A DNA stretch of 64,000 bases from a virus (lineage: Duplodnaviria > Caudoviricetes): positions 4,313 through 68,312 of IMG/VR virus record IMGVR_UViG_3300011989_000486. The stretch is one strand, 5' to 3'. A program made the translations under genes and the position numbers. Shown here one piece after another: positions 8,037-64,000 of the stretch. Under the pieces are notes generated by a model. It was not told the origin of the DNA. It saw nothing but the letters and a program-made list of their open reading frames with translations, and did no database searches. The stretch's first letter is position 1. Every line of letters starts with the position of its first letter.

Positions 8037-8227
8037 TGACCTCATACATTAACGAGTTATCCAGAAAACTGGGGCTCAATCCCAGAGATATCTTCCGCTA
8101 CAGCGACTGTGACTGGTCGGAAGTTTTCAATAACATTGAACCTGAACTTCAGGACGATGTTATTGAACTTCAGGAGCTCTGTGAAGAGCTCATGGCTGAA
8201 GAAGCCTATGACGAGGAGTTCAAATAA
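8036..8227 (+). CDS. Small acidic protein
   Basis: 63 aa, GAGGAGG RBS, TAATG coupled to RNAP1. Confidence 0.8.
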   Translation: MTSYINELSRKLGLNPRDIFRYSDCDWSEVFNNIEPELQDDVIELQELCEELMAEEAYDEEFK

Positions 8228-9045
8228 TGAACCAAAAAGAAAATGAGCGCCTTCAAGAAGAAATTGAGCTTGAAGATACTCACAATAAAAACCTCTTGAT
8301 GCAACGTGTCAGACAAGAGGTTATGAATGACATGGATTTACAGAACTTAATTGCAAAATCTGGTGTAAACCAGAAAGTCTGTAATTCATGCCTGATGTAT
8401 CTGGCGGTATATAAAAGATTGCCACCAGATGCATTACTGGGTTTACTTTATCATCCTCAGCCAGAGGATTATGACAAAGCAAATCCAGAATCATTACAAA
8501 CCTTAGCTGAAGACATTGAAGCCTGCTGTGAAGCGGGCTTCTTTGATACTGACGACCAAGGAAGATTTGTAGTGATATTTGAGCTGCCAAAAAGAGTAGA
8601 AGAAGAACTGGACCAGTTCCAGTTTCCTTTACCTCTGTTGGTGACTCCAAAAACCATTGTGTCTAATACTGACTCAGGATATTACACAAAGAACCATGAG
8701 TCAGTTTTACTAGGAGGTAAAAAGACAGGTGAAGATGTCTGCTTAGAGCATCTGAACCTGATGAACAGCATCCCGTTCACTATCAATACTATGACGAACC
8801 AGGAAGCAGAGTGCACCTGGGATGGGATAAGTTCAGAAATGAGCAAAAAGAACTTAAAACGGTACATCTCAGCCATGATGAAAAACGAAGATCTCATGGT
8901 TGAGAAAGGTAATAAGTTTTATTTCAGCCACAGATTTGATTATCGTGGCAGAACTTATTGTCAAGGATATCACCTGAACTATCAGGGGACAGCCTACAAC
9001 AAAGCAGTTCTTGAGTTAGCTCATAAAGAGTTGGTTCAAAACTAA
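8227..9045 (+). CDS. RNA polymerase II subunit 1 (N4 gp15-like)
   Basis: FDYRGRTYCQGY = T7-family DxxGR motif; 272 aa. Confidence 0.9.
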   Translation: MNQKENERLQEEIELEDTHNKNLLMQRVRQEVMNDMDLQNLIAKSGVNQKVCNSCLMYLAVYKRLPPDALLGLLYHPQPEDYDKANPESLQTLAEDIEACCEAGFFDTDDQGRFVVIFELPKRVEEELDQFQFPLPLLVTPKTIVSNTDSGYYTKNHESVLLGGKKTGEDVCLEHLNLMNSIPFTINTMTNQEAECTWDGISSEMSKKNLKRYISAMMKNEDLMVEKGNKFYFSHRFDYRGRTYCQGYHLNYQGTAYNKAVLELAHKELVQN

Positions 9046-9113
9046 ATTACTACTTACTAAAGCCCATCTGATCAAGGTAATTAGATGGACTTTTGTTTAT
9101 TAAGGAAATAAAA

Positions 9114-9479
9114 ATGATTTTATGCAATATACCTGAACAGAAATATAAACTTCCGAGAGTATCAGCGAAACTCACAGTTAAGCTGTATCAAGGAATTAGA
9201 GAAATAGATAAGATGTTTGGAACCAAAACATCTCTATATGATTTCGTTAAAAACGAGTTACCTTTTCAAATAGCTCAGATGAGAGAGGAATATCATGCTC
9301 GTAAATGGCATAAAAATTATTTAAGAGAAAAATACGGAAGCCTGACATTAGATCAAGCAAAGAAGTTAAAAGCCTTAATTGAAAAAGGGCTTACTCTTAA
9401 ATATGGTAAACAAGTTCTAGGTGATTACACCGAAGAACTTGAAGATATTAGAGAATACTGCTGCTTAATAGCAGCTTAA
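9114..9479 (+). CDS. Hypothetical protein between RNAP subunits
   Basis: AAGGA RBS favours ATG 9114 over TTG 9093; ends CLIAA. Confidence 0.7.
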   Translation: MILCNIPEQKYKLPRVSAKLTVKLYQGIREIDKMFGTKTSLYDFVKNELPFQIAQMREEYHARKWHKNYLREKYGSLTLDQAKKLKALIEKGLTLKYGKQVLGDYTEELEDIREYCCLIAA

Positions 9480-9536
9480 CCAATAAAGAACCCAGCCCAA
9501 TGTGAGCTGGGTTCAGTCATTTATGGAGATAGTAAG

Positions 9537-10763
9537 ATGACTCAATTTACTCCTAAACAGTATTTACAGATGGATATAGCTTCAATGTACGGTCTTGATA
9601 AAAAGACTTGGTCTGAGAGACTTGAATGGTTTAATCAGAACCAAAACAAGCTTGAAGACCTGGTTGAACAGGCAGATGACAAAGCAGGCTATATAGCCGC
9701 TGTTAATGCCTATGAAGACATGCAAGATGGCAAACCGATAGGTTATTGCATAAATCTTGATGCTACTGCCTCTGGCTGTCAAGTTTTAGCCTTACTTACT
9801 GGAGACAAACAAGCTGCTGAAAGAGTTAATTTAATAAATACGGGCAAGAGGGAAGACCTGTACACCTACATCTACAACAAGATGAAAGATGAAGTAGAAG
9901 TAAGTGACAAACTTACCAGAGACCAAGTAAAAAAGGCTATCATGACTTCTCTTTATGGAAGTGAAAAGAAACCCAAAGAAGTATTTGGGGAAGACAATTA
10001 TGAAATTTTTGAAGATATTATGAGTGAAGAACTCCCTGGAGTATGGGAGTTAAACGAGTGTCTTTTAGATTGCTGGAACTCAAAAGCATCTGAATATAAC
10101 TGGATAATGCCTGATAATTTCCATGTGAAATGCAAAGTAATGACTCCAGTTGTATTTGAAACAACTTTATTTGATGAGCCTGTTGATATTCTCAAATATG
10201 TTAATAAACCCATTAAGAAAGGCAAGTTCCTTTCAGCGAACTTGGCTCACTCAGTTGACGGGTTTATCAACAGAGAAATGACCCTGCGCTGTATGCTCTC
10301 AGGGGCATATAAGCAGACTCTGAAAAAGTTGGTGAACCTAAAACCTGAAAGTTCAGAGTTTGGTCAAATTTGCGAAAGTCTGCCTAAAGGCAACTCCAGG
10401 AAATTTAACACCCTGATGACTCGGTACAGAGAGTCTGGATACTTACCAGTAAGAATACTTCTGTATCTGAACCAGAAGTGCTACATGGGTATGGGAGCCA
10501 AAGAGAAGAAAGAACTGAAAGAACTGGTGAACTCACTACCTAATGATGGGTTTGAGCTTTTCAGTATTCATGACTGCTTCAGATGCCATCCGAATCATGC
10601 TGAAGCAGTCAGAGAACAGTACAGAGTAATTTGTTCAAGGATAGCTAAGAGCAAGATGCTTGATGCTATACTTAGTCACATGTTTGAGCATCCCATTCAT
10701 GTAAATAAGTTAAATGAAAACTTGGGTGACGAAGTGCTTAAAAGCGAATATGCAATTTGCTAA
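9537..10763 (+). CDS. RNA polymerase II subunit 2 (N4 gp16-like)
   Basis: Motif A DATASG, motif B RDQVKKAIMTSLYG, motif C IHDCF. Confidence 0.95.
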   Translation: MTQFTPKQYLQMDIASMYGLDKKTWSERLEWFNQNQNKLEDLVEQADDKAGYIAAVNAYEDMQDGKPIGYCINLDATASGCQVLALLTGDKQAAERVNLINTGKREDLYTYIYNKMKDEVEVSDKLTRDQVKKAIMTSLYGSEKKPKEVFGEDNYEIFEDIMSEELPGVWELNECLLDCWNSKASEYNWIMPDNFHVKCKVMTPVVFETTLFDEPVDILKYVNKPIKKGKFLSANLAHSVDGFINREMTLRCMLSGAYKQTLKKLVNLKPESSEFGQICESLPKGNSRKFNTLMTRYRESGYLPVRILLYLNQKCYMGMGAKEKKELKELVNSLPNDGFELFSIHDCFRCHPNHAEAVREQYRVICSRIAKSKMLDAILSHMFEHPIHVNKLNENLGDEVLKSEYAIC

Positions 10764-10771
10764 TTAAAAAT

Positions 10772-10812
10772 TACTACCTGATAATTAAGTTTATTAGGTA
10801 GTATTTTTTTTT
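10772..10812 (+). terminator. Hairpin plus T-tract between RNAP2 and the methyltransferase
   Basis: TACTACCT-(16 nt)-AGGTAGTA followed by a long T run. Confidence 0.6.
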
Positions 10813-10824
10813 TTAAGGATTAAG

Positions 10825-11775
10825 ATGACAGGATATAAAACTGATTTAGGTGAATACATTTATGGGGATTCACTTAAATTAATTAAGCAAATAAAAGATA
10901 ATAGTATTGATTTAATTATGACTTCTCCGCCTTTTGCATTACAACGTCAAAAAGCATATGGCAATGAAGATCAACATGTTTATGTGAATTGGCTTTGCCA
11001 ATTTACAAAAGCTGCTTACTATAAGCTTAAAAATACAGGTTCGATAGTGCTTGATATTGGTGGAGCTTATCAAAAAGGAAGCCCTATTTATTCTTTATAT
11101 CAATTTCGTTTCTTAATAAAAATGGTTGATGAATTAGGTTATAGCTTAGCTCAACCATTTTATTGGTTTAACTCTAGTGCTTTACCAGCACCTATTGAAT
11201 GGGTTAATAAAAGAAAAATTAGAGCCAAAAATGCAGTAAATACTGTATGGTGGTTTTGTAAAACTCCTTTTTGTAAAGCAGATATTAGAAATGTATTAAC
11301 TCCTTATAGTTCTCGTATGAAAAAGCTCATTGCTAATCCAAAAGATTTCGTTCCTCATGAAGGAACAGAACGCCCTTCTGGACATGTAATGGGATTAGCT
11401 AGTTGGACAAAAGATAATGGTGGAGCTATCCCTTCAAATTTACTTTCTATTCCAAATACAGAAAGTAATAGTAGTTATTTAAGATATTGTAAAGCTTTAA
11501 AATTAAAAGCACATCCTGCAAGATTTCCAGCTAAATTACCTGAATTTTTTATAAAAATGTTAACTAAAGAAAATGATTTAGTTGTAGACATATTTGCAGG
11601 AAGTAATACAACTGGAAGTGTTTGTGAACAATTAAAAAGAAAATGGTTATCTTTTGATAATGAATTAGAATATGTTGCAAATAGTGTCTTTAGATTTTGT
11701 CCAAAAGAGCTAGATTTAGACAAAGCTAAAGAACACTATAATAATATTATAAATATGGATAGTATTAAGCTTTAA
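10825..11775 (+). CDS. N4-cytosine DNA methyltransferase, M.PvuII-like (beta class)
   Basis: TSPPF catalytic motif before DIFAGS SAM motif; PIEWVNKRKIR, NTVWWF, HPARFPAKLPEFFI match my recall of M.PvuII. Confidence 0.9.
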   Translation: MTGYKTDLGEYIYGDSLKLIKQIKDNSIDLIMTSPPFALQRQKAYGNEDQHVYVNWLCQFTKAAYYKLKNTGSIVLDIGGAYQKGSPIYSLYQFRFLIKMVDELGYSLAQPFYWFNSSALPAPIEWVNKRKIRAKNAVNTVWWFCKTPFCKADIRNVLTPYSSRMKKLIANPKDFVPHEGTERPSGHVMGLASWTKDNGGAIPSNLLSIPNTESNSSYLRYCKALKLKAHPARFPAKLPEFFIKMLTKENDLVVDIFAGSNTTGSVCEQLKRKWLSFDNELEYVANSVFRFCPKELDLDKAKEHYNNIINMDSIKL

Positions 11776-12328
11776 TTACATCAATTGGACTAATGGGATG
11801 CTGCTTGTCAAATGGATAAACTTGTACCCCATTTTTTCTAACCCAAGAAAGATTTATATGCGGATTATTTAAAGTATTTCCTTGATTAGTTATTGGTTTA
11901 TCTTCTTCTGATGCAATTTTATTTTCCCACTGCTTATAATGATATTCCATTTTATCAGGAGTTACTATCCAAATTTCTTGTAATATAATACCATTATATA
12001 CAGCAAAACTCCATGGGACTTTTCTATATTTATTTATAATTTTACGATTTATATGATGATTTGTAGTAAAACTTCTTGCAGAGGTAGCAAGATTAAGAGA
12101 TTTCATTTCCCATTCTGTACCATCTTCAGAAATTGCATCATTACCTTCCCTTTCAGGTAATGCCTTAAAATTTAAATATGTTATTTGTTGTAAAATTTTA
12201 GCTCCATTATCTTGAAAAATATCTTTAATATTATTTTTCGTTGCTAATTCTTGTATTTCGTTTAATTTAATCCATAGTTGATTAATTTTATTAATTCTAT
12301 GAATATGATCTTGATCTAAAAATGCCAT
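11765..12328 (-). CDS. Type II restriction endonuclease, PvuII-like
   Basis: DIFQDNG, REGNDA, EMKS, FTTNHH, KYRKVPW, NNPHI correspond to R.PvuII DIFQDNG/REGNDA/ELKS/FSTHHH/KYRQVPW/NNPKI (from recall). Confidence 0.85.
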   Translation of the reverse strand: MAFLDQDHIHRINKINQLWIKLNEIQELATKNNIKDIFQDNGAKILQQITYLNFKALPEREGNDAISEDGTEWEMKSLNLATSARSFTTNHHINRKIINKYRKVPWSFAVYNGIILQEIWIVTPDKMEYHYKQWENKIASEEDKPITNQGNTLNNPHINLSWVRKNGVQVYPFDKQHPISPIDVIKA

Positions 12329-12466
12329 TTAATACTCTTTTAATAAACTTAAACAATTTAAGTAAAAATTAAAAATAGTAATTTTCAATTTAATATTAAT
12401 CAACTTAATATATAATATTAAGTTTTATTATATTTTTATTTTTGAACCAAGGAGACCACAGACTAC

Positions 12467-12799
12467 ATGGCTGCAAGCACACGCATGAATGTACAGATGA
12501 TCCCAGCACGGATCAATGGTATCAAGAAGAAGCTCACTGATATACAGCTCTCAAAGGAAGAATTTAAGAAAGCACTGGATGCCTTGAACCAGTGTCACTG
12601 TGACCCTAGAGACCTGTTCTATGACAACGAGGAGCTACAGGAACCAGATACCAACGACAAGGACTTCCTTGAAGCCTGGGCGTATATCTTTAGCGGCATA
12701 GAGAGCTTCATTGAGAAGCTGAACCAGGAAGAGAAGAAGCTCAAGATCCAGAAAGAGACCCTGGAAAGTGTACTGAGTAGTAACTCAGATAAGAATTGA
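12467..12799 (+). CDS. Hypothetical coiled-coil protein
   Basis: 110 aa, AAGGAG RBS. Confidence 0.75.
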   Translation: MAASTRMNVQMIPARINGIKKKLTDIQLSKEEFKKALDALNQCHCDPRDLFYDNEELQEPDTNDKDFLEAWAYIFSGIESFIEKLNQEEKKLKIQKETLESVLSSNSDKN

Positions 12800-12885
12800 C
12801 AAGCCCAAAAAAGAGATTAAATTAAAAACATCTCTTTTTACTGTTTTTCTCTGGAATGGCCCCAGAGACCCCAGCAGGCAGAAGG

Positions 12886-13019
12886 TATATATATATATAT
12901 ATCAAAGACCGAGGTATGTTTATATAAAGATTACTATGTAGTAATTGATCTACTTTATAGGTACTAGGTAGTAAATGATCTTTAGGATCTTATATACCCT
13001 ACTGGGGAGTAATTGATCT
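12886..13019. repeat. (TA)8 tract and three GTAGTAA(T/A)TGATCT-like repeats
   Basis: TA run 12886-12902; repeats at 12938, 12968, 13006; GATC at 12947, 12977, 12986, 13015. Confidence 0.8.
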
Positions 13020-13023
13020 ATAT

Positions 13024-13050
13024 AGCCCGCGGGAAGCGGGCTTTATTTTT
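13024..13050 (+). terminator. Intrinsic terminator at convergent junction
   Basis: AGCCCGC-GGGAA-GCGGGCT-TTATTTTT. Confidence 0.75.
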
Positions 13051-13310
13051 TATGATTCTGAGATAGTGTTAATATCCAGTACCTCTTCCTTGGGAAACAG
13101 ATCTGGGCAGTTCCACATTCTCTCTAACCTGTCTGCCCATTGTTCATTTCCTGTACGCCTTAGAAAATCAAGATAGTAACTTTTCTGCTCTTGGTTCAGA
13201 TCTGTCTCCCAGCCCTTGATGTGAGCTGTAAACATACTGTCAGCTCTGGTTACGGCTTCCTTCGCAAATTCACATGCCTGCTTAGCAAACACAAACTCCA
13301 CGTCTGTCAC
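13050..13310 (-). CDS. Isolated antisense hypothetical protein
   Basis: 86 aa, GTG start with upstream CAGGGG; fills an otherwise empty gap. Confidence 0.6.
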   Translation of the reverse strand: MTDVEFVFAKQACEFAKEAVTRADSMFTAHIKGWETDLNQEQKSYYLDFLRRTGNEQWADRLERMWNCPDLFPKEEVLDINTISES

Positions 13311-13498
13311 GCTGATTACCCCTGAGTAATTAAGTTCTGTTGTGGGTTGGATTACTTAGTAGTAATAACCCATCAGATTTATTATAAACTGCATTTGCAC
13401 AAGTGCAATTTATAAAAACCTAATCTTGGTTCATTTGTGAACTAAGCCTTGTTGCGGGTTCATACCCTTAGATACTTACCACTACTTTAGGAATAACT

Positions 13499-14584
13499 AT
13501 GAAGTCCATTGAATACACAGTAGACATTAAACAAGCCACTACTCTGACCGAAGATGCTTTAGCGTCTGGTCTTGTCCCTTTCCTGCACTCAGCTCCTGGC
13601 TGCGGCAAATCATCCATCATTAAAGCCATTGCCAAGAAAAATAATCTCAAGCTGATAGACCTGAGACTGAGCACCATTGACAGTGTTGACCTGTCAGGTA
13701 TGCCCATGATTAAAGAGAACCATCAGGTTGACTGGGTGCCATTTGATGTATTCCCGCTTACCAAAACACCTGTACCGCAGGGTTACAACGGTTGGCTCCT
13801 GTTCTTAGATGAGTTTAATTCAGCCAGCGAGCCTGTCATCGCAGCTGCTTACAACGTGGTCTTAGACCATCGCATTGGCATCTACAACCTCAACCCTAAA
13901 TGCTTTATCGCATGTGCAGGCAATCGTGAAGAAGACCATGCCATTACCACGTCTATTGGCACTGCCATGACTTCACGCTTGGTTCACCTTACGCTTGAAC
14001 CTACGGTAGACGCATGGATTAATCAGGTAGCTATCCCGCAGCATTATGACTACAGAGTCATAGCTTTCCTGAGTATGCATCCTGATGCGTTTAACGACTT
14101 TGACCCAAGCAAGCCTACTGACACTTACGCATGTCCGCGTACCTGGGAATTTCTTAATCGTGAGCTTGAGGTCTTTAAAGCAGCAGATCCGACTCTCAAG
14201 AACCTCAGCGACAAGTTGCCTCTGCTTGCAGGCACTGTCAGTGCAGGCATAGCTGTAGAGTTCGTGCAGTTTTGCAAGGTAATTCAGAATCTGCCTACCT
14301 ACGAAAACATCGTTAAATCTCCTCTCAAAGCCAAGCTCCCTGATGACCTGAGCGCTCTTTGGGCAACTGTTTCTATGTGCGCCCAGAAAGTCTCAGAGGA
14401 CGACATTGACGTTGTCAGCGAATACATCAGACGCATTCCTGACCGCTCAATGCAGGGTCTGTTCACCAGGGCTGTTATTCAGAACAACCCGTTACTGGTA
14501 AGCAATCAGAACATTGCTTCTTTCGTGACTGATTTGGCTATTGAGATTGGAGAGATGAACGATGCCTTACACAATGCCGCCTGA
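13499..14584 (+). CDS. MoxR-like AAA+ ATPase (N4 gp24-like)
   Basis: Walker A SAPGCGKS, Walker B LFLDEFN, paired with a vWA gene. Confidence 0.9.
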   Translation: MKSIEYTVDIKQATTLTEDALASGLVPFLHSAPGCGKSSIIKAIAKKNNLKLIDLRLSTIDSVDLSGMPMIKENHQVDWVPFDVFPLTKTPVPQGYNGWLLFLDEFNSASEPVIAAAYNVVLDHRIGIYNLNPKCFIACAGNREEDHAITTSIGTAMTSRLVHLTLEPTVDAWINQVAIPQHYDYRVIAFLSMHPDAFNDFDPSKPTDTYACPRTWEFLNRELEVFKAADPTLKNLSDKLPLLAGTVSAGIAVEFVQFCKVIQNLPTYENIVKSPLKAKLPDDLSALWATVSMCAQKVSEDDIDVVSEYIRRIPDRSMQGLFTRAVIQNNPLLVSNQNIASFVTDLAIEIGEMNDALHNAA

Positions 14585-15812
14585 GAAACAGGTACAGGTT
14601 AAGAAAGCTTATCGCCAGCTCCAGCTAACCATCTTCACTGGAAAAAACTCTGCTTTCCTGGCTCCTCTGCTTTGCTCACTGAACATCAAATTCACTGATG
14701 GCAGCGACTTTGGCAGAGACCCTGAGCGCTTCTACATGGGAACCACTGGAGACACCATCTGGATTAACCCAGACAAGCTCTTAACCATGAAGCTCAAAGA
14801 TGCCAGTTTCATCCTTGAGCATGAACTTTGGCATATCGCCAGACTGCATATTCAGCGCAGAGGTGACAAAGACCCTCAAACATGGAACCAAGCCTGTGAC
14901 TATGTCATTAACAACGACATGATCAGAGACGGCAGTTCTTGCAGTATTCCTGGACTTGTTAATCCAGACTACTTAAACAAGAGCGAAGAAGATGTTTATG
15001 GCGACATCTGTAAACCGCGCAAGCAGGCTAAAAACAAAGGCAATGGCAGTGATCCTGCTGAAGTACCTCCGTCAGATAAATCAGGAGAAGATTATGGGAA
15101 CTCTGATAGTGATAATCCTGTTGGCAATGATTTACTGCCAGCTACGAAAGAGCAAATAGAAAACGCTTTAGGCAACGTCATCAAAGCCAGACAGCAGGCT
15201 CTGCTTTCAGGCGGCTTGCAGCCTGGAACTACGGCAGGAGACCTGTGCAAAGTCTGGGATAAATCCTTAGAGCCAGAACTGCCCTGGGAAAACATCCTTC
15301 ACTCTTTGATGAAGGATTTACTCCCCAAGACTCAGCTCTCATGGAAACGCCGTAACAGGCGCTACATGAATATCCACATGCCGTCTATGGTTGCCGGTAA
15401 AGACAGGCTGGCTCATCTCATCTATGCCATAGACACTTCTGGCTCAGTAAGTGAAAAGCAGCTTAACCGTATTAACTCTGAAATCCGTTACGTCCACGAC
15501 AGGCTCAAGCCTAAGAAACTCACTGTCATTCAGTTTGATGAAGACTTACAGAACGTGCAGACATTCGCGGACAAGGACAAATACGAAAAAGTTGAACTTC
15601 ACGGAGGCGGAGGAACTTCCTACTGGCCTGTAAAACATTTCGTTGACAACTGTGAAGGTAAGGTCAACGGCTTAATCGTTTTTACAGACCTTTACTGCGA
15701 TCCAATGGCTCCTTTAGCCAACCCGAACATACCTGTGTTCTGGGTTGGGGTTGCCACTGATAAGACCGAGAAGGACATCCCCTTTGGTCATTTCATTCCA
15801 GTGAGGGTTTGA
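14562..15812 (+). CDS. Metallopeptidase + vWA domain protein (N4 gp25-like)
   Basis: HELWH zinc motif; MIDAS DTSGS; GGGT. Confidence 0.9.
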   Translation: MPYTMPPEKQVQVKKAYRQLQLTIFTGKNSAFLAPLLCSLNIKFTDGSDFGRDPERFYMGTTGDTIWINPDKLLTMKLKDASFILEHELWHIARLHIQRRGDKDPQTWNQACDYVINNDMIRDGSSCSIPGLVNPDYLNKSEEDVYGDICKPRKQAKNKGNGSDPAEVPPSDKSGEDYGNSDSDNPVGNDLLPATKEQIENALGNVIKARQQALLSGGLQPGTTAGDLCKVWDKSLEPELPWENILHSLMKDLLPKTQLSWKRRNRRYMNIHMPSMVAGKDRLAHLIYAIDTSGSVSEKQLNRINSEIRYVHDRLKPKKLTVIQFDEDLQNVQTFADKDKYEKVELHGGGGTSYWPVKHFVDNCEGKVNGLIVFTDLYCDPMAPLANPNIPVFWVGVATDKTEKDIPFGHFIPVRV

Positions 15813-62386: not shown

Positions 62387-62827
62387 ATGCTGTTATACGC
62401 TAAAGACGAAGGAGCCAAGGAGTTATTCAAGGCTCATGAGTTGGATGCTGGTTTTGATATCGCCATGCCTAAAGACTACAAGTGCAGACCGCAGTACGTG
62501 CACATGATTGACACTGGCATTCACATTCATCTTGAGCCAGATGAGCTGGCTTTTGTACTGCCCAGAAGCTCTACTGCGTTCTTAGGTTTAATCGTTCTTA
62601 CAGGTACTATTGACGCTGGTTACACGGGAAGTCTGAAGATCCAAGTGATGAACCCGTTTAATCGCTGGAAGCGCCTTAAAGAAGGTCAGCGAATTGCTCA
62701 GTTGGTAGTAATCAAAAACAGCAGAAGTAAGCAGGCTGTAAAGCTGTTAGATTCACCTGATTTACTGCCTAGTAATCAGGAGAAGTCCTCTCGTGGTATT
62801 TTTGGATTTGGTTCTTCTGGTAAATAA
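62387..62827 (+). CDS. dut: Trimeric dUTPase
   Basis: AGFD, PRSS, GTIDAGYTG, RIAQLV, RGIFGFGSSG motifs. Confidence 0.95.
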   Translation: MLLYAKDEGAKELFKAHELDAGFDIAMPKDYKCRPQYVHMIDTGIHIHLEPDELAFVLPRSSTAFLGLIVLTGTIDAGYTGSLKIQVMNPFNRWKRLKEGQRIAQLVVIKNSRSKQAVKLLDSPDLLPSNQEKSSRGIFGFGSSGK

Positions 62828-62830
62828 ATA

Positions 62831-62859
62831 TTGACATAAAGCATAACTGGCTTTATGTT
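62831..62859 (+). promoter_or_regulatory. Sigma70-type promoter with overlapping inverted repeat
   Basis: TTGACA-17 nt-TATGTT; ACATAAAGC/GCTTTATGT inverted repeat at 62834-62858. Confidence 0.7.
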
Positions 62860-62933
62860 GAGCGTATCGGCAATGACCGATACAAATATAAAAAATCTAC
62901 CACTGCTTACCGTTATAAAAATAGGAAACTACG

Positions 62934-63143
62934 ATGGACGAGTTGACCAAGGTTGTTGATCAGATCCGTGAGGAACTTACCGATGAGGACTTCTTCAAGG
63001 ATTTAGAGCTGTGTCTTAAAGGCAATAAATCTGCTGGCTTACGCTGCCGTAAGAAGACTGTAGATTTAACCAAGCTCTTTAAGACTTTCCGTAAGCTCTC
63101 TGTAAATGCTAACAAGGCTCTTAAAGCAGAGCCTGTGGAGTAA
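62934..63143 (+). CDS. Histone H1-like Hc1-family nucleoid protein
   Basis: GNKSAGLRCRKKTVDLTKLFKTFRKLS matches the Hc1-family pattern GNK(A/S)A..R.R..S..L.K..K.FRK.S (from recall). Confidence 0.75.
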   Translation: MDELTKVVDQIREELTDEDFFKDLELCLKGNKSAGLRCRKKTVDLTKLFKTFRKLSVNANKALKAEPVE

Positions 63144-63163
63144 GTGTCTTAATAATTAATTTC

Positions 63164-63191
63164 ATTTGGACCTCCTGATACAACCCTCAAA
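63164..63191 (+). terminator. Intrinsic terminator
   Basis: AACCCTCAAAGC-GTAA-GTTTTGGGGGTT then T-rich. Confidence 0.65.
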
Positions 63192-63248
63192 GCGTAAGTT
63201 TTGGGGGTTATTTTATAATTAGAAATCATTATTATTAAGGATCACGTA

Positions 63249-63779
63249 TTGATGGATAAAGCATTTAATCAGGCATTTGAACGAGTCATAGGGTCAGAAG
63301 GCTGTTTCACAGATGACCCTAAAGACCGTGGCAACTGGACTGTAGGAATCGTTGGTAAAGGCGAGCTCAAAGGAACCAAGTACGGCATTTCCGCTATGAG
63401 CTACCCGCATGAAGATATCAGGAACCTGACGTTAGACCGAGCCAAGGAGCTCTACTACAGAGACTACTGGCAGAAGCTTAACTTAGATGAGTTTATCCCT
63501 GAGCTTAGCTATCAGATATTTGATGCAGCAGTCCAGCATGGCAATGCCACAGCAGCTAAATTTCTTCAGCAAGTAGTTGGCACTATTCCTGATGGTATTT
63601 TAGGTAAATCTACTGTCAGTAAAGCCAAGTCTATGAACCAGCGTAAGCTGGTGTTCTTCTACATAGCCAACCGTCTCCGTTTCTACACCAAAATAGGAAC
63701 CTTTTCCGTTTACGGTAAAGGCTGGGTTAATCGTATGGCAGCCAATATTTCCTATGCTGCCGAAATGGAGGCTGTATGA
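63249..63779 (+). CDS. Endolysin, glycoside hydrolase family 108 with PG-binding_3 domain
   Basis: IGSEG..DDPKDRG, TKYGIS, YYRDYW, FDAAVQHG, DGILG, YGKGWVNR. Confidence 0.92.
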   Translation: MMDKAFNQAFERVIGSEGCFTDDPKDRGNWTVGIVGKGELKGTKYGISAMSYPHEDIRNLTLDRAKELYYRDYWQKLNLDEFIPELSYQIFDAAVQHGNATAAKFLQQVVGTIPDGILGKSTVSKAKSMNQRKLVFFYIANRLRFYTKIGTFSVYGKGWVNRMAANISYAAEMEAV

Positions 63780-64000
63780 GAAATTTAATTGGATTACTTA
63801 CTAATAGCCCGTTTTGGGCACTGGTATTTGTGGCTATTGCTATCTGGTCTGCTTTTGGCTTCTACGGAGCCGGGTATACCAAAGGCATTAAGTACGGTAT
63901 GGAGCTAAGTCAAGCTGAAATTGACAGGCTTCAGCTTGAGCTTCAGGCACTTCAGACTAAAACCATGAACACCTCATTCATCGTCCAGCATCCAATATAG
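63776..64000 (+). CDS. Short membrane protein resembling the N-terminus of an i-spanin
   Basis: TM helix, GYTKG motif, short coiled coil; ATGA-coupled to endolysin. Confidence 0.55.
   Translation: MRNLIGLLTNSPFWALVFVAIAIWSAFGFYGAGYTKGIKYGMELSQAEIDRLQLELQALQTKTMNTSFIVQHPI

What the first reader, a model, noticed from the sequence alone, without database searches (positions are those of the whole stretch)
10825..12328. Complete PvuII-like restriction-modification system carried by an N4-like phage, without a controller
A conspicuously AT-rich ~1.65-kb island sits directly after RNAP2. It encodes an M.PvuII-like N4mC methylase (+) and a PvuII-like nuclease (-) that keeps catalytic D/E/K and recognition Q-D, H-H and N-N residues (FSTHHH becomes FTTNHH). 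The genes converge with an 11-nt overlap. Native PvuII has divergent genes plus a C protein; none is seen here. Hypothesis: the methylase rides the early/middle strand and the nuclease the late strand, so the transcription programme replaces C-protein delay. Possible roles are cutting host or co-infecting DNA, superinfection defence, or addiction in a carrier state. Orphan MTases are common in phages; an intact cognate nuclease in this family is unusual to my knowledge.
Basis: partly seen in the sequence, partly recalled or inferred. Interest (0 to 1): 0.8.

Follow-up and report, generated by a model that had tools for sequence, protein, structure and literature searches.

The report
PvuII-type restriction cassette in temperate N4-like prophage
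An intact, selectively maintained PvuII-family restriction-modification gene pair sits in an N4-like phage, but the phage is a temperate, integrating prophage of a gut Succinivibrionaceae bacterium, and the tail-to-tail layout is inherited from bacterial relatives, many of which also lack a controller, so the cassette is best read as ordinary prophage-borne defence or addiction cargo in an unusual carrier.

Summary
Window 10825-11775(+) encodes a full-length M.PvuII homologue. Window 11765-12328(-) encodes a PvuII-family nuclease with catalytic and recognition residues intact. The genes overlap tail-to-tail by 11 nt inside a 27% GC island in a 42.6% GC N4-like genome. No C protein or C-box exists anywhere in the phage.

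The interpretation needs three corrections.

1. The convergent overlapping layout is not a phage invention. Every sampled relative with R at 49% identity or more has it. About half carry a C-type HTH gene, and C loss is recurrent. The FTTNHH motif is invariant across that clade.
2. The phage is temperate. A tyrosine integrase lies just past the window. attL and attR split a virB4 gene on a 207-kb bacterial contig, and an attP junction occurs on another contig.
3. M and R lack the phage's own promoter-like motif and are bracketed by terminators.

A second phage variant carries the same cassette, and both genes are under purifying selection (dN/dS 0.06 for M, 0.19 for R).

The most likely role is a lysogen-expressed defence or addiction module plus virion methylation. 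This is a new member of a known kind. Earlier scan notes recorded only solitary PvuII-fold nucleases in lytic phages.

The parts
9537..10763 (+). RNAP2 large subunit gene (context; left neighbour of the cassette). Its last ~300 nt belong to the block that is diverged between the two phage variants.
   Evidence: Pfam PF00940. tblastn hits 561 phage records; the listed best are Schitoviridae at 43-45%. Identity profile.
10772..10813 (+). 13-bp-stem hairpin followed by T10, 11 nt before the M start codon. It is terminator-like and insulates M from upstream plus-strand transcription. A weak sigma70-like -35/-10 pair (10757-10785) overlaps its 5' arm.
   Evidence: The hairpin is conserved in the second phage variant, where its stem pairs perfectly.
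10825..11775 (+). M.PvuII-like beta-class N4-cytosine DNA methyltransferase, 316 aa (TSPPF motif and DIFAGSNTTG AdoMet motif present).
   Evidence: dN/dS 0.06 against the L003 allele.
11765..11775 (.). 11-nt tail-to-tail overlap of the M and R reading frames (4 nt in the second phage variant, owing to a 7-nt indel).
11765..12328 (-). PvuII-family type IIP restriction endonuclease, 187 aa. Catalytic D64/E74/K76. Recognition D40, H91, H92, N154, N155. Phage-specific features: NNPK changed to NNPH, and a 9-aa low-confidence loop before NNP.
   Evidence: dN/dS 0.19 against the L003 allele.
12329..12466 (.). 16% GC intergenic region between R(-) and orf110(+). The ~100 nt next to R are almost identical in both phage variants and contain AT-rich -35/-10-like hexamers, an AAAGAG ribosome-binding site and a 10-bp inverted repeat (about 12402-12424). 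This is the presumed R promoter and operator region.
   Evidence: No ORF of regulatory size.
12467..12799 (+). orf110, an ORFan divergent from R. It belongs to the same diverged block and the same terminator-bracketed unit, but has backbone-like GC (45%). Function unknown; no evidence that it is a controller.
   Evidence: No Pfam, PHROG or PADLOC hit. No tblastn hit in phages. Apart from itself, the 1.84-billion-protein library gives only one weak partial hit, E 3.3e-05 to a 2829-aa protein. dN/dS 0.11.
13024..13042 (+). GC-rich hairpin plus T-run. It is the first plus-strand terminator downstream of M, so plus-strand transcripts starting at M would cross R in antisense and orf110 before ending here.

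Best explanation
The locus is a horizontally acquired, intact type IIP restriction-modification cassette of the PvuII family. It encodes an N4-cytosine methyltransferase and a cognate homodimeric nuclease, most probably specific for CAGCTG. It sits in the hypervariable slot between RNAP2 and the AAA-ATPase of a temperate N4-like phage that integrates into a virB4 gene of a gut Succinivibrionaceae bacterium.

Shown: both proteins are full length with their catalytic and recognition residues. Both are under purifying selection in two phage variants. The convergent overlapping layout and the frequent lack of a C gene are inherited from the bacterial or MGE clade the cassette came from. The phage has an integrase and occurs in both integrated (attL/attR) and circular or concatemeric (attP) form.

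Inferred: the cassette behaves as an autonomous moron. M and R are transcribed by host RNA polymerase from their own AT-rich promoters in the lysogen. There the pair restricts incoming phages and plasmids carrying unmethylated sites, and it penalises loss of the prophage (post-segregational killing). M also methylates the 7 remaining CAGCTG sites of progeny DNA, which protects virions from their own R and from the PvuII-type systems common in gut bacteria.

In place of a C protein, the balance between M and R is probably set by convergent transcription. No terminator lies between the genes, so M-strand transcripts, and any lytic plus-strand read-through, run antisense across R and its promoter.
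For: Identity and integrity. Selection: against the L003 allele, M has dS 0.72 and dN/dS 0.06, and R has dS 0.47 and dN/dS 0.19. Both are intact, and catalytic and recognition residues are unchanged. The cassette is real and recurrent: the same junctions occur on ENA and Logan contigs. Inherited layout: every locus with R at 49% identity or more that also has an M hit is R-> <-M, with gaps from -74 to +118 nt (mostly between -23 and +42). The divergent M<- ->C->R layout is confined to the clade with R at 38-46% identity. In the tree the phage R nests in the convergent clade (100/98), sister to the C-less L005. C-less status needs at least 6 changes. Temperate state: a 399-aa tyrosine integrase follows the record end. 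The prophage measures 69,913 bp core to core and splits a virB4 ORF (...AVIMAT | ATQTLSDLEF...), with T4SS genes on both sides. An attP junction GACTTC-TGGCCAC-GAAGTC is observed directly on L082. The host RimO is closest to Succinivibrio and Succinivibrionaceae sequences. Autonomy: conserved hairpin plus T10 before M, a terminator after orf110, and none between M and R. The phage promoter-like motif TTACTTACCACTAC precedes 7 phage genes but not M or R. The R-proximal upstream ~100 nt are conserved. Site relevance: CAGCTG occurs 7 times in the phage against 32-40 expected, but 9 times against ~8.5 expected in 17 kb of host flank. Literature: R-M density is 8-fold higher in prophages than in virulent phages (PMC4176335). 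Control by antisense or convergent promoters is known for EcoRI and Eco29kI (PMC3141266, PMC12707154).
Against: There are no expression, methylation or cleavage data, so the promoters are only weak consensus matches in very AT-rich DNA; the scan found 11 against 14 expected by chance. The phage avoids many other palindromes even more strongly (CTGCAG 0 against 27-32), so CAGCTG depletion is not specific proof of the target site. The phage-specific K-to-H change in NNPK and the 9-aa loop could alter specificity or activity. No prophage repressor was identified, so which genes are silent in the lysogen is unknown. GC3 of 12-19% persists despite dS of 0.5-0.7. This could mean the island is silenced, for example by an H-NS-type protein, rather than expressed in the lysogen. 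No island-free relative was found, so the benefit cannot be read from presence/absence patterns.
Confidence: 0.6

Rival explanations
1. One reading: the R-M pair is wired into the N4-type temporal programme. M is made with early or middle plus-strand genes and R later from the minus strand. The phage programme thus replaces the C-protein delay, and R works during lytic growth to cut host or co-infecting DNA.
For: M is co-oriented with, and 61 nt downstream of, the RNAP2 genes, and R is on the strand used by late genes. There is no C protein. Host flank DNA carries CAGCTG at the normal frequency, about one per 1.9 kb, so R could shred it. The phage itself keeps only 7 sites.
Against: The C-less convergent layout is inherited from cellular relatives that have no phage programme. 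R is isolated about 20 kb from the late block. Neither gene has the phage's recurrent promoter-like motif, which is found before both plus-strand and late minus-strand genes. A conserved hairpin plus T10 separates M from the RNAP2 transcript. The phage is temperate, so a lytic-only role is not required to explain retention.
Confidence: 0.2
2. Only the methyltransferase benefits the phage, as anti-restriction self-methylation against the PvuII-type systems common in gut bacteria. R persists as the selfish, addictive half of a mobile cassette, or is largely silenced in the AT-rich island.
For: Solitary MTases are the usual phage cargo (PMC4176335). M is more constrained than R (dN/dS 0.06 against 0.19). 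PvuII-type systems occur in a Succinivibrionaceae MAG and many gut Bacillota. The extreme AT-richness is maintained. The closest cellular relatives place an H-NS-like gene directly upstream of R.
Against: A dispensable R should decay. Instead it is intact in both variants, with dN/dS 0.19 at dS 0.47 and all catalytic and recognition residues unchanged. Its proximal upstream region is more conserved than the coding sequence.
Confidence: 0.15
3. The island is an assembly chimera or a contaminant joined to the phage contig.
For: There is an abrupt compositional break, and the source is a metagenome.
Against: The same cassette lies between the same phage genes on ENA contigs and on Logan contigs from different runs, including a variant with 87% nucleotide identity in the cassette and ~98% in the backbone.
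Confidence: 0.01

Closest known systems
PvuII R-M system of Proteus (R.PvuII, M.PvuII, C.PvuII; PDB 1pvi, 1boo)
   Same: Same two enzyme families. R is 42% identical with the same fold and the same catalytic D/E/K and D34, H84, H85, N140, N141 equivalents. M aligns end to end (E 4e-120)..
   Different: The genes converge with overlapping 3' ends, whereas PvuII has opposing pvuIIM and pvuIICR units (PMC2175313). There is no C gene and no C-boxes. H83 is N (clade-wide). K143 is H, and there is a 9-aa loop before NNP (phage-specific). The carrier is a phage, not a plasmid.
Convergent PvuII-family cassettes of gut and rumen bacteria and their mobile elements (loci L005-L017 and L043-L074; uncharacterised)
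   Same: R-> <-M orientation with a short overlap or gap, the invariant TNHH motif, and R of 176-195 aa. Many lack a C gene. The nearest, L005-L007, has R at 60% and M at 66% identity, a 12-nt overlap and no C.
   Different: About half carry an HTH_3 or HTH_26 controller upstream of R. L005-L007 carry an H-NS-like gene there instead. The phage alleles are more AT-rich (GC3 12-19%) than any sampled relative and sit on a long branch.
Esp1396I/AhdI-type convergent type II systems, and EcoRI/Eco29kI antisense control
   Same: Convergent R and M units. Transcriptional interference or antisense RNA is a documented way of setting the M:R ratio (PMC5333194, PMC3141266, PMC12707154).
   Different: Esp1396I and AhdI still use a C protein. 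EcoRI and Eco29kI are tandem, with internal reverse promoters. Nothing has been measured for the phage cassette.
Prophage- or plasmid-prophage-borne R-M systems (for example P1 EcoP1I; the prophage R-M set of Oliveira et al. 2014, PMC4176335)
   Same: A complete R-M carried by a temperate phage, with expected roles in lysogen defence and element stabilisation.
   Different: The carrier is an N4-like (Schitoviridae-type) podophage, a group long regarded as strictly lytic. The 2023 survey that proposed temperate N4-like proviruses never uses the words restriction or methyltransferase in its main text (PMC10654107).

Membership tests
PvuII-family type IIP restriction endonuclease (Pfam PF09225) | Profile match above the curated cut-off over the whole domain | tested here: met
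   139.7 bits against a cut-off of 25; residues 13-171 cover profile positions 4-155 of 155. PADLOC REase_II at 9e-41.
PvuII-family type IIP restriction endonuclease (Pfam PF09225) | PD-(D/E)XK catalytic triad equivalent to PvuII D58, E68, K70 | tested here: met
   D64, E74 and K76 align to GNDA...E.K in PvuII. They are invariant in 18 homologues and unchanged in the second phage allele.
PvuII-family type IIP restriction endonuclease (Pfam PF09225) | Base-contacting residues D34, H84, H85, N140, N141 | tested here: met
   D40, H91, H92, N154 and N155 are conserved. Neighbouring H83 is N, which is invariant in the clade. K143 is H only in the phage alleles.
PvuII-family type IIP restriction endonuclease (Pfam PF09225) | PvuII fold | tested here: met
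   The AF2 model has pLDDT 88.2 and pTM 0.86. Foldseek ranks 1-12 are all PvuII chains; ranks 1-10 have TM 0.73-0.77 normalised by target and E down to 2e-16, and ranks 11-12 are the single-chain PvuII dimer.
PvuII-family type IIP restriction endonuclease (Pfam PF09225) | Cleavage of unmethylated CAGCTG, blocked by m4C | not testable with these tools
   Indirect only: CAGCTG occurs 7 times against 32-40 expected in the phage.
M.PvuII-like beta-class N4-cytosine methyltransferase (Pfam PF01555) | Full-length similarity to M.PvuII, with the SPPF catalytic motif and the AdoMet-binding motif | tested here: met
   1boo at E 4e-120, with residues 3-315 aligned to 9-318. TSPPF and DIFAGSNTTG are visible in the translation. 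PADLOC MTase_II at 3.8e-145.
M.PvuII-like beta-class N4-cytosine methyltransferase (Pfam PF01555) | Produces N4-methylcytosine at the cognate site | not testable with these tools
   Needs SMRT or Nanopore methylome data, or an in vitro assay.
C-protein-controlled R-M system (PvuII regulatory architecture) | Small HTH controller gene upstream of, and co-oriented with, R | tested here: not met
   Only 138 bp lie upstream of R, with no ORF over 34 aa. Neighbouring ORFs have no HTH. The C-protein HMM finds no hit in the six-frame phage genome.
C-protein-controlled R-M system (PvuII regulatory architecture) | C-boxes (GACTnnnAGTC-type operators) upstream of the C-R unit | tested here: not met
   No match with up to 1 mismatch between 10000 and 13500.
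C-protein-controlled R-M system (PvuII regulatory architecture) | M transcribed divergently from C-R | tested here: not met
   M and R converge and overlap by 11 nt.
N4-like phages (Schitoviridae-type) | Two-subunit RNAP2, giant virion RNA polymerase, N4-type gene order | tested here: met
   The listed best hits of the RNAP2 large subunit are Schitoviridae at 43-45%. The centre of the 4716-aa ORF matches N4 virion RNAP (E 1e-17). Synteny with phage Zuri: RNAP2 small, RNAP2 large, variable slot, AAA-ATPase.
N4-like phages (Schitoviridae-type) | Strictly lytic lifestyle (the classical description) | tested here: not met
   Integrase, attL/attR in a 207-kb bacterial contig, and an attP junction on another contig. 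This is consistent with the in-silico proposal of temperate N4-like viruses (PMC10654107).
Prophage moron / lysogenic-conversion cassette | Autonomous unit with its own promoter and terminator, expressed from the repressed prophage | tested here: inconclusive
   Terminator-like hairpins bracket the unit, and the phage promoter-like motif is absent. The promoters are only weak consensus matches, and there are no expression data.

The most novel reading that the evidence does not exclude
The cassette is a lysogeny-gated restriction switch that needs no controller protein. R lies antisense to the whole plus-strand early/middle transcription unit, with no terminator between M and R. R would therefore be made only when plus-strand phage transcription is silent, as in an established lysogen. 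M, transcribed with that strand and from its own promoter, would always come first on infection and on induction. In this reading the temporal programme and strand architecture of a temperate N4-like phage substitute for the C-protein delay circuit.
Probability: 0.2. Interest if true: 0.65.

Novelty: new member of a known kind. Interest (0 to 1): 0.42.

Why it matters
Complete type II R-M systems are nearly absent from virulent phages and rare in prophages. None was found here in any other N4-like genome. This case shows that N4-like phages, long treated as strictly lytic, can be temperate and can carry classic lysogen-level defence or addiction cargo. The lineage offers a compact natural example of a C-less, tail-overlapping PvuII-family system. 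It would suit experiments on how such systems establish without killing a naive host. It also documents a large uncharacterised clade of convergent PvuII-type cassettes in gut bacteria, so the textbook PvuII layout is not representative of its own family.

Tried and rejected
1. Megablast of 8200-14600 against 50,697 phage records gave no match. Single-protein scans of IMG/VR with R and with RNAP2 found no relatives. Exact look-up of the fully conserved neighbour orf86 returned only the same phage lineage. No island-free close relative could be found, so the presence/absence test remains open.

2. orf110 as a hidden controller was rejected for lack of any evidence. It has no Pfam, PHROG or PADLOC hit and no phage tblastn hit. 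Apart from itself, 1.84 billion representatives gave only one weak partial match.

3. A cryptic C gene or C-box was rejected.

4. M autoregulation through an extra N-terminal HTH (SsoII/Ecl18kI type) is unlikely. M aligns to M.PvuII from residue 3 and has no additional domain.

5. I first suspected the 207-kb contig was a three-fold concatemer of a ~69-kb phage. This was rejected: the flanks are bacterial genes (T4SS, rimO, asd, HU) and the junctions are att sites.

6. The other 30 R-bearing IMG/VR loci were checked for N4-like neighbours and none had any.

7. The genome search on the ENA contig failed because the record is not held. One look-up failed because my TTG-start ORF differs from the gene as called.

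8. CAGCTG avoidance as proof of specificity is only suggestive, because many palindromes are avoided more strongly.
Full report
OBSERVATION. The 316-aa ORF lies at 10825-11775(+), and the 187-aa ORF lies at 11765-12328(-). Their 3' ends overlap by 11 nt. The plus-strand protein matches Pfam N6_N4_Mtase (2e-38). It aligns end to end with the crystal-structure sequence of M.PvuII (1boo, E 4e-120, residues 3-315 to 9-318), and the TSPPF and DIFAGSNTTG motifs are present. The minus-strand protein matches Pfam Endonuc-PvuII (139.7 bits against a cut-off of 25) and all PvuII chains in the PDB (E about 3e-39). An AlphaFold model built on 18 homologues has pLDDT 88. Its 12 best Foldseek hits in the PDB are all PvuII, at 42% identity. 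The equivalents of PvuII D58/E68/K70 (D64, E74, K76), Q33-D34, H84-H85 and N140-N141 are present. The island is compositionally extreme. GC is 27.2% at 10764-12466 against 42.6% for the 68-kb record. It is the lowest 1.7-kb window in the genome by a wide margin. GC3 is 12-13% against 38-51% in backbone genes.

CARRIER. The RNAP2 large subunit just upstream hits 561 phage records, and the listed best hits are Schitoviridae at 43-45%. The centre of a 4716-aa minus-strand ORF matches the N4 virion RNA polymerase. Gene order matches Pseudomonas phage Zuri: RNAP2 small subunit, RNAP2 large subunit, about ten small variable genes, then the AAA-ATPase. The cassette therefore occupies the known hypervariable slot of a divergent N4-like phage. 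No nucleotide-level relative exists among 50,697 phage records.

NO CONTROLLER. Only 138 bp (16% GC) lie upstream of R, and they hold no ORF longer than 34 aa. Neighbouring ORFs have no HTH. No C-box-like GACTnnnAGTC occurs between 10000 and 13500. An HMM built from 22 C proteins of related loci finds nothing in the six-frame translation of the whole phage at E<=1. M has no extra N-terminal domain. The divergent neighbour orf110 is an ORFan: in a 1.84-billion-protein library it finds itself and one weak partial hit.

THE CASSETTE IS REAL AND SELECTED. The identical R protein is on three contigs. An 86%-identical R is on two Logan contigs from other runs. One of these, L003, is the same phage at about 98% nucleotide identity. 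However, a block from about 10450 to 12800 is only 83-89% identical. That block spans the end of RNAP2, M, R and orf110. Within it, M has dS 0.72 and dN/dS 0.06, and R has dS 0.47 and dN/dS 0.19. Both are intact, with catalytic and recognition residues unchanged. The diverged block includes phage genes. The simplest reading is therefore recombination with a third, more distant phage that carries the same cassette at the same place. The overlap is 4 nt in L003, owing to a 7-nt indel. An assembly chimera is excluded.

WHERE THE DESIGN COMES FROM. I collected 613 homologues of R and fetched 62 loci from viral and genome collections plus eight from metagenome assemblies. Mapping R, M and C in each gave a clean split. 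Every locus with R at 49% identity or more to the phage, and with an M hit, is R-> <-M. The gaps run from -74 to +118 nt and are mostly between -23 and +42. Loci with R at 38-46% identity are M<- ->C->R, the classical PvuII layout (PMC2175313). In the convergent clade about half have an HTH_3 controller upstream of R and three have an HTH_26 protein. Many have no small upstream gene at all. In a maximum-likelihood tree the phage pair nests inside the convergent clade (support 100/98). It is sister to L005-L007, which lack C and carry an H-NS-like gene upstream of R. C-less status needs at least six changes on the tree. Only NNPK to NNPH and a 9-aa low-confidence loop before it are specific to the phage alleles. 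The convergent, overlapping and often C-less design is therefore ancestral cargo, not a phage adaptation.

THE PHAGE IS TEMPERATE. The IMG/VR record is flagged as a provirus. On the 206,697-bp ENA contig, a 399-aa tyrosine integrase follows immediately after the record's right end. VirB8, VirB9, VirB10 and VirB6-type genes follow that. Left of the phage lie VirB11-, VirB2-, VirB3- and VirB4-type genes, and then rimO, HPr, HU and asd. RimO is closest to Succinivibrio and Succinivibrionaceae sequences. The left junction reads ...ATCATGGCCACGAAGTC... and the right junction reads ...GACTTCTGGCCACTCAGAC.... The virB4 reading frame is cut at ...AVIMAT and resumes at ATQTLSDLEF.... The distance from core to core is 69,913 bp. 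From these I predicted an attP of GACTTC-TGGCCAC-GAAGTC. That junction is present on an independent Logan contig (L082), where the integrase end joins the tail-protein end with a 7-nt overlap at TGGCCAC. The phage therefore exists in both integrated and circular or concatemeric forms. Temperate N4-like proviruses have been proposed in silico (PMC10654107). That paper never uses the words restriction or methyltransferase in its main text.

ANATOMY OF EXPRESSION (inference). A 13-bp-stem hairpin followed by T10 sits 11 nt before the M start codon and is conserved in L003, where its stem pairs perfectly. No terminator lies between M and R. The first plus-strand terminator after M is at 13024-13042, beyond orf110. 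The motif TTACTTACCACTAC lies 13-20 nt upstream of seven phage genes on both strands, including the vRNAP gene (24 hits at up to 3 mismatches against 5.3 expected). It is absent before M and R. The roughly 100 nt next to R are nearly identical in the two variants, although the coding regions differ by 13%. I read this as an autonomous, terminator-bracketed moron transcribed by the host polymerase. Transcripts on the M strand, and any lytic plus-strand read-through, would cross R and its promoter in antisense. This resembles the interference and antisense control described for EcoRI and Eco29kI (PMC3141266, PMC12707154). None of this has been measured, and sigma70-like matches in this region are no more frequent than chance.

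FUNCTION. R-M systems are about 8-fold denser in prophages than in virulent phages (PMC4176335), so a temperate carrier removes most of the surprise. The phage has 7 CAGCTG sites against 32 (dinucleotide model) to 40 (order-4 Markov) expected. In contrast, 17 kb of host flank has 9 against about 8.5 expected. The remaining phage sites and the host chromosome must therefore be methylated if R is active. The phage avoids many other palindromes even more strongly, so this depletion is only suggestive of the target site. PvuII-type cassettes occur in a Succinivibrionaceae MAG and in many gut Bacillota, which gives virion methylation an obvious benefit. My best explanation (0.6) is lysogen-level defence and prophage addiction plus self-methylation. 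An M-only benefit with a selfish or silenced R gets 0.15.

VERDICT. This is a new member of a known kind: a PvuII-family R-M cassette on a prophage, here in an N4-like carrier for which I found no precedent. Earlier notes from this scan describe only solitary PvuII-fold nucleases in lytic phages on other DNA. I did not test those notes.

Noticed in passing
L080:11592-12791(-) integrase; att cores at L080:12998, L083 near 14265, and L082:7319 (outside the window; window-equivalent coordinates -4529 and 65384): The N4-like phage is temperate. It has a tyrosine integrase. attL and attR split a virB4/trbE gene inside a T4SS cluster on a 207-kb bacterial contig, and the prophage measures 69,913 bp core to core. 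The attP junction GACTTC-TGGCCAC-GAAGTC is observed directly on an independent contig. Integration should inactivate the T4SS ATPase gene.
   Followed up: yes
window 13472, 20563, 21296, 25294, 28072 (+); 48237-48224 and 56312-56299 (-): The conserved motif TTACTTACCACTAC lies 13-20 nt upstream of start codons of middle-type and late genes, including the vRNAP gene. It is a candidate phage-specific (T7-like RNAP2?) promoter. There are 24 hits at up to 3 mismatches against 5.3 expected.
   Followed up: partly
whole record (G000, 68,312 bp): The phage shows extreme avoidance of many palindromes: CTGCAG 0 against 27-32 expected, GCATGC 0 against 12-22, CTTAAG 1 against 24-29, TCGA 10 against 137, GGCC 18 against 142, CTAG 58 against 334. 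This points to heavy exposure to diverse host R-M systems.
   Followed up: partly
window about 10450-12800 compared with L003: A mosaic block is only 83-89% identical between two phage variants that are otherwise about 98% identical. It starts inside the RNAP2 gene and ends at the end of orf110. This implies recombination with a third cassette-bearing phage lineage.
   Followed up: partly
L005:1208-1525, L006:1204-1521, L007:264-581: In the closest non-phage relatives of the cassette, an H-NS-like gene (PF00816) sits directly upstream of, and co-oriented with, R, where other clade members have a C protein. It may be an alternative silencer-type controller.
   Followed up: no
window 10825-12328 and L003:10001-11511: GC3 of M and R stays at 12-19% in both alleles despite dS of 0.5-0.7. 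This is lower than in any sampled relative. The AT-richness appears to be maintained rather than being a transient sign of recent transfer.
   Followed up: partly
window 62387-64000 and L080:10001-11614: A plus-strand accessory cluster next to the integrase encodes a dUTPase, an Hc1-like histone (PF07432), a GH108 lysozyme and a 74-aa ORF.
   Followed up: no
window 13050-13310 (-): orf86 is a minus-strand ORFan among plus-strand genes. It is 100% conserved at the protein level between the two variants (9 synonymous changes, 0 non-synonymous). Its function is unknown.
   Followed up: no
L078:1-4044 (-) (record start, left of the window): A 1347-aa protein with a glycosyl hydrolase family 8 domain lies at the left prophage end. 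It is probably a tail fibre or depolymerase.
   Followed up: no
L083:14201-24044 and L080:13301-20441: The host flanks are 60% GC while the phage is 42.6% GC, an unusually large mismatch between phage and host composition.
   Followed up: no
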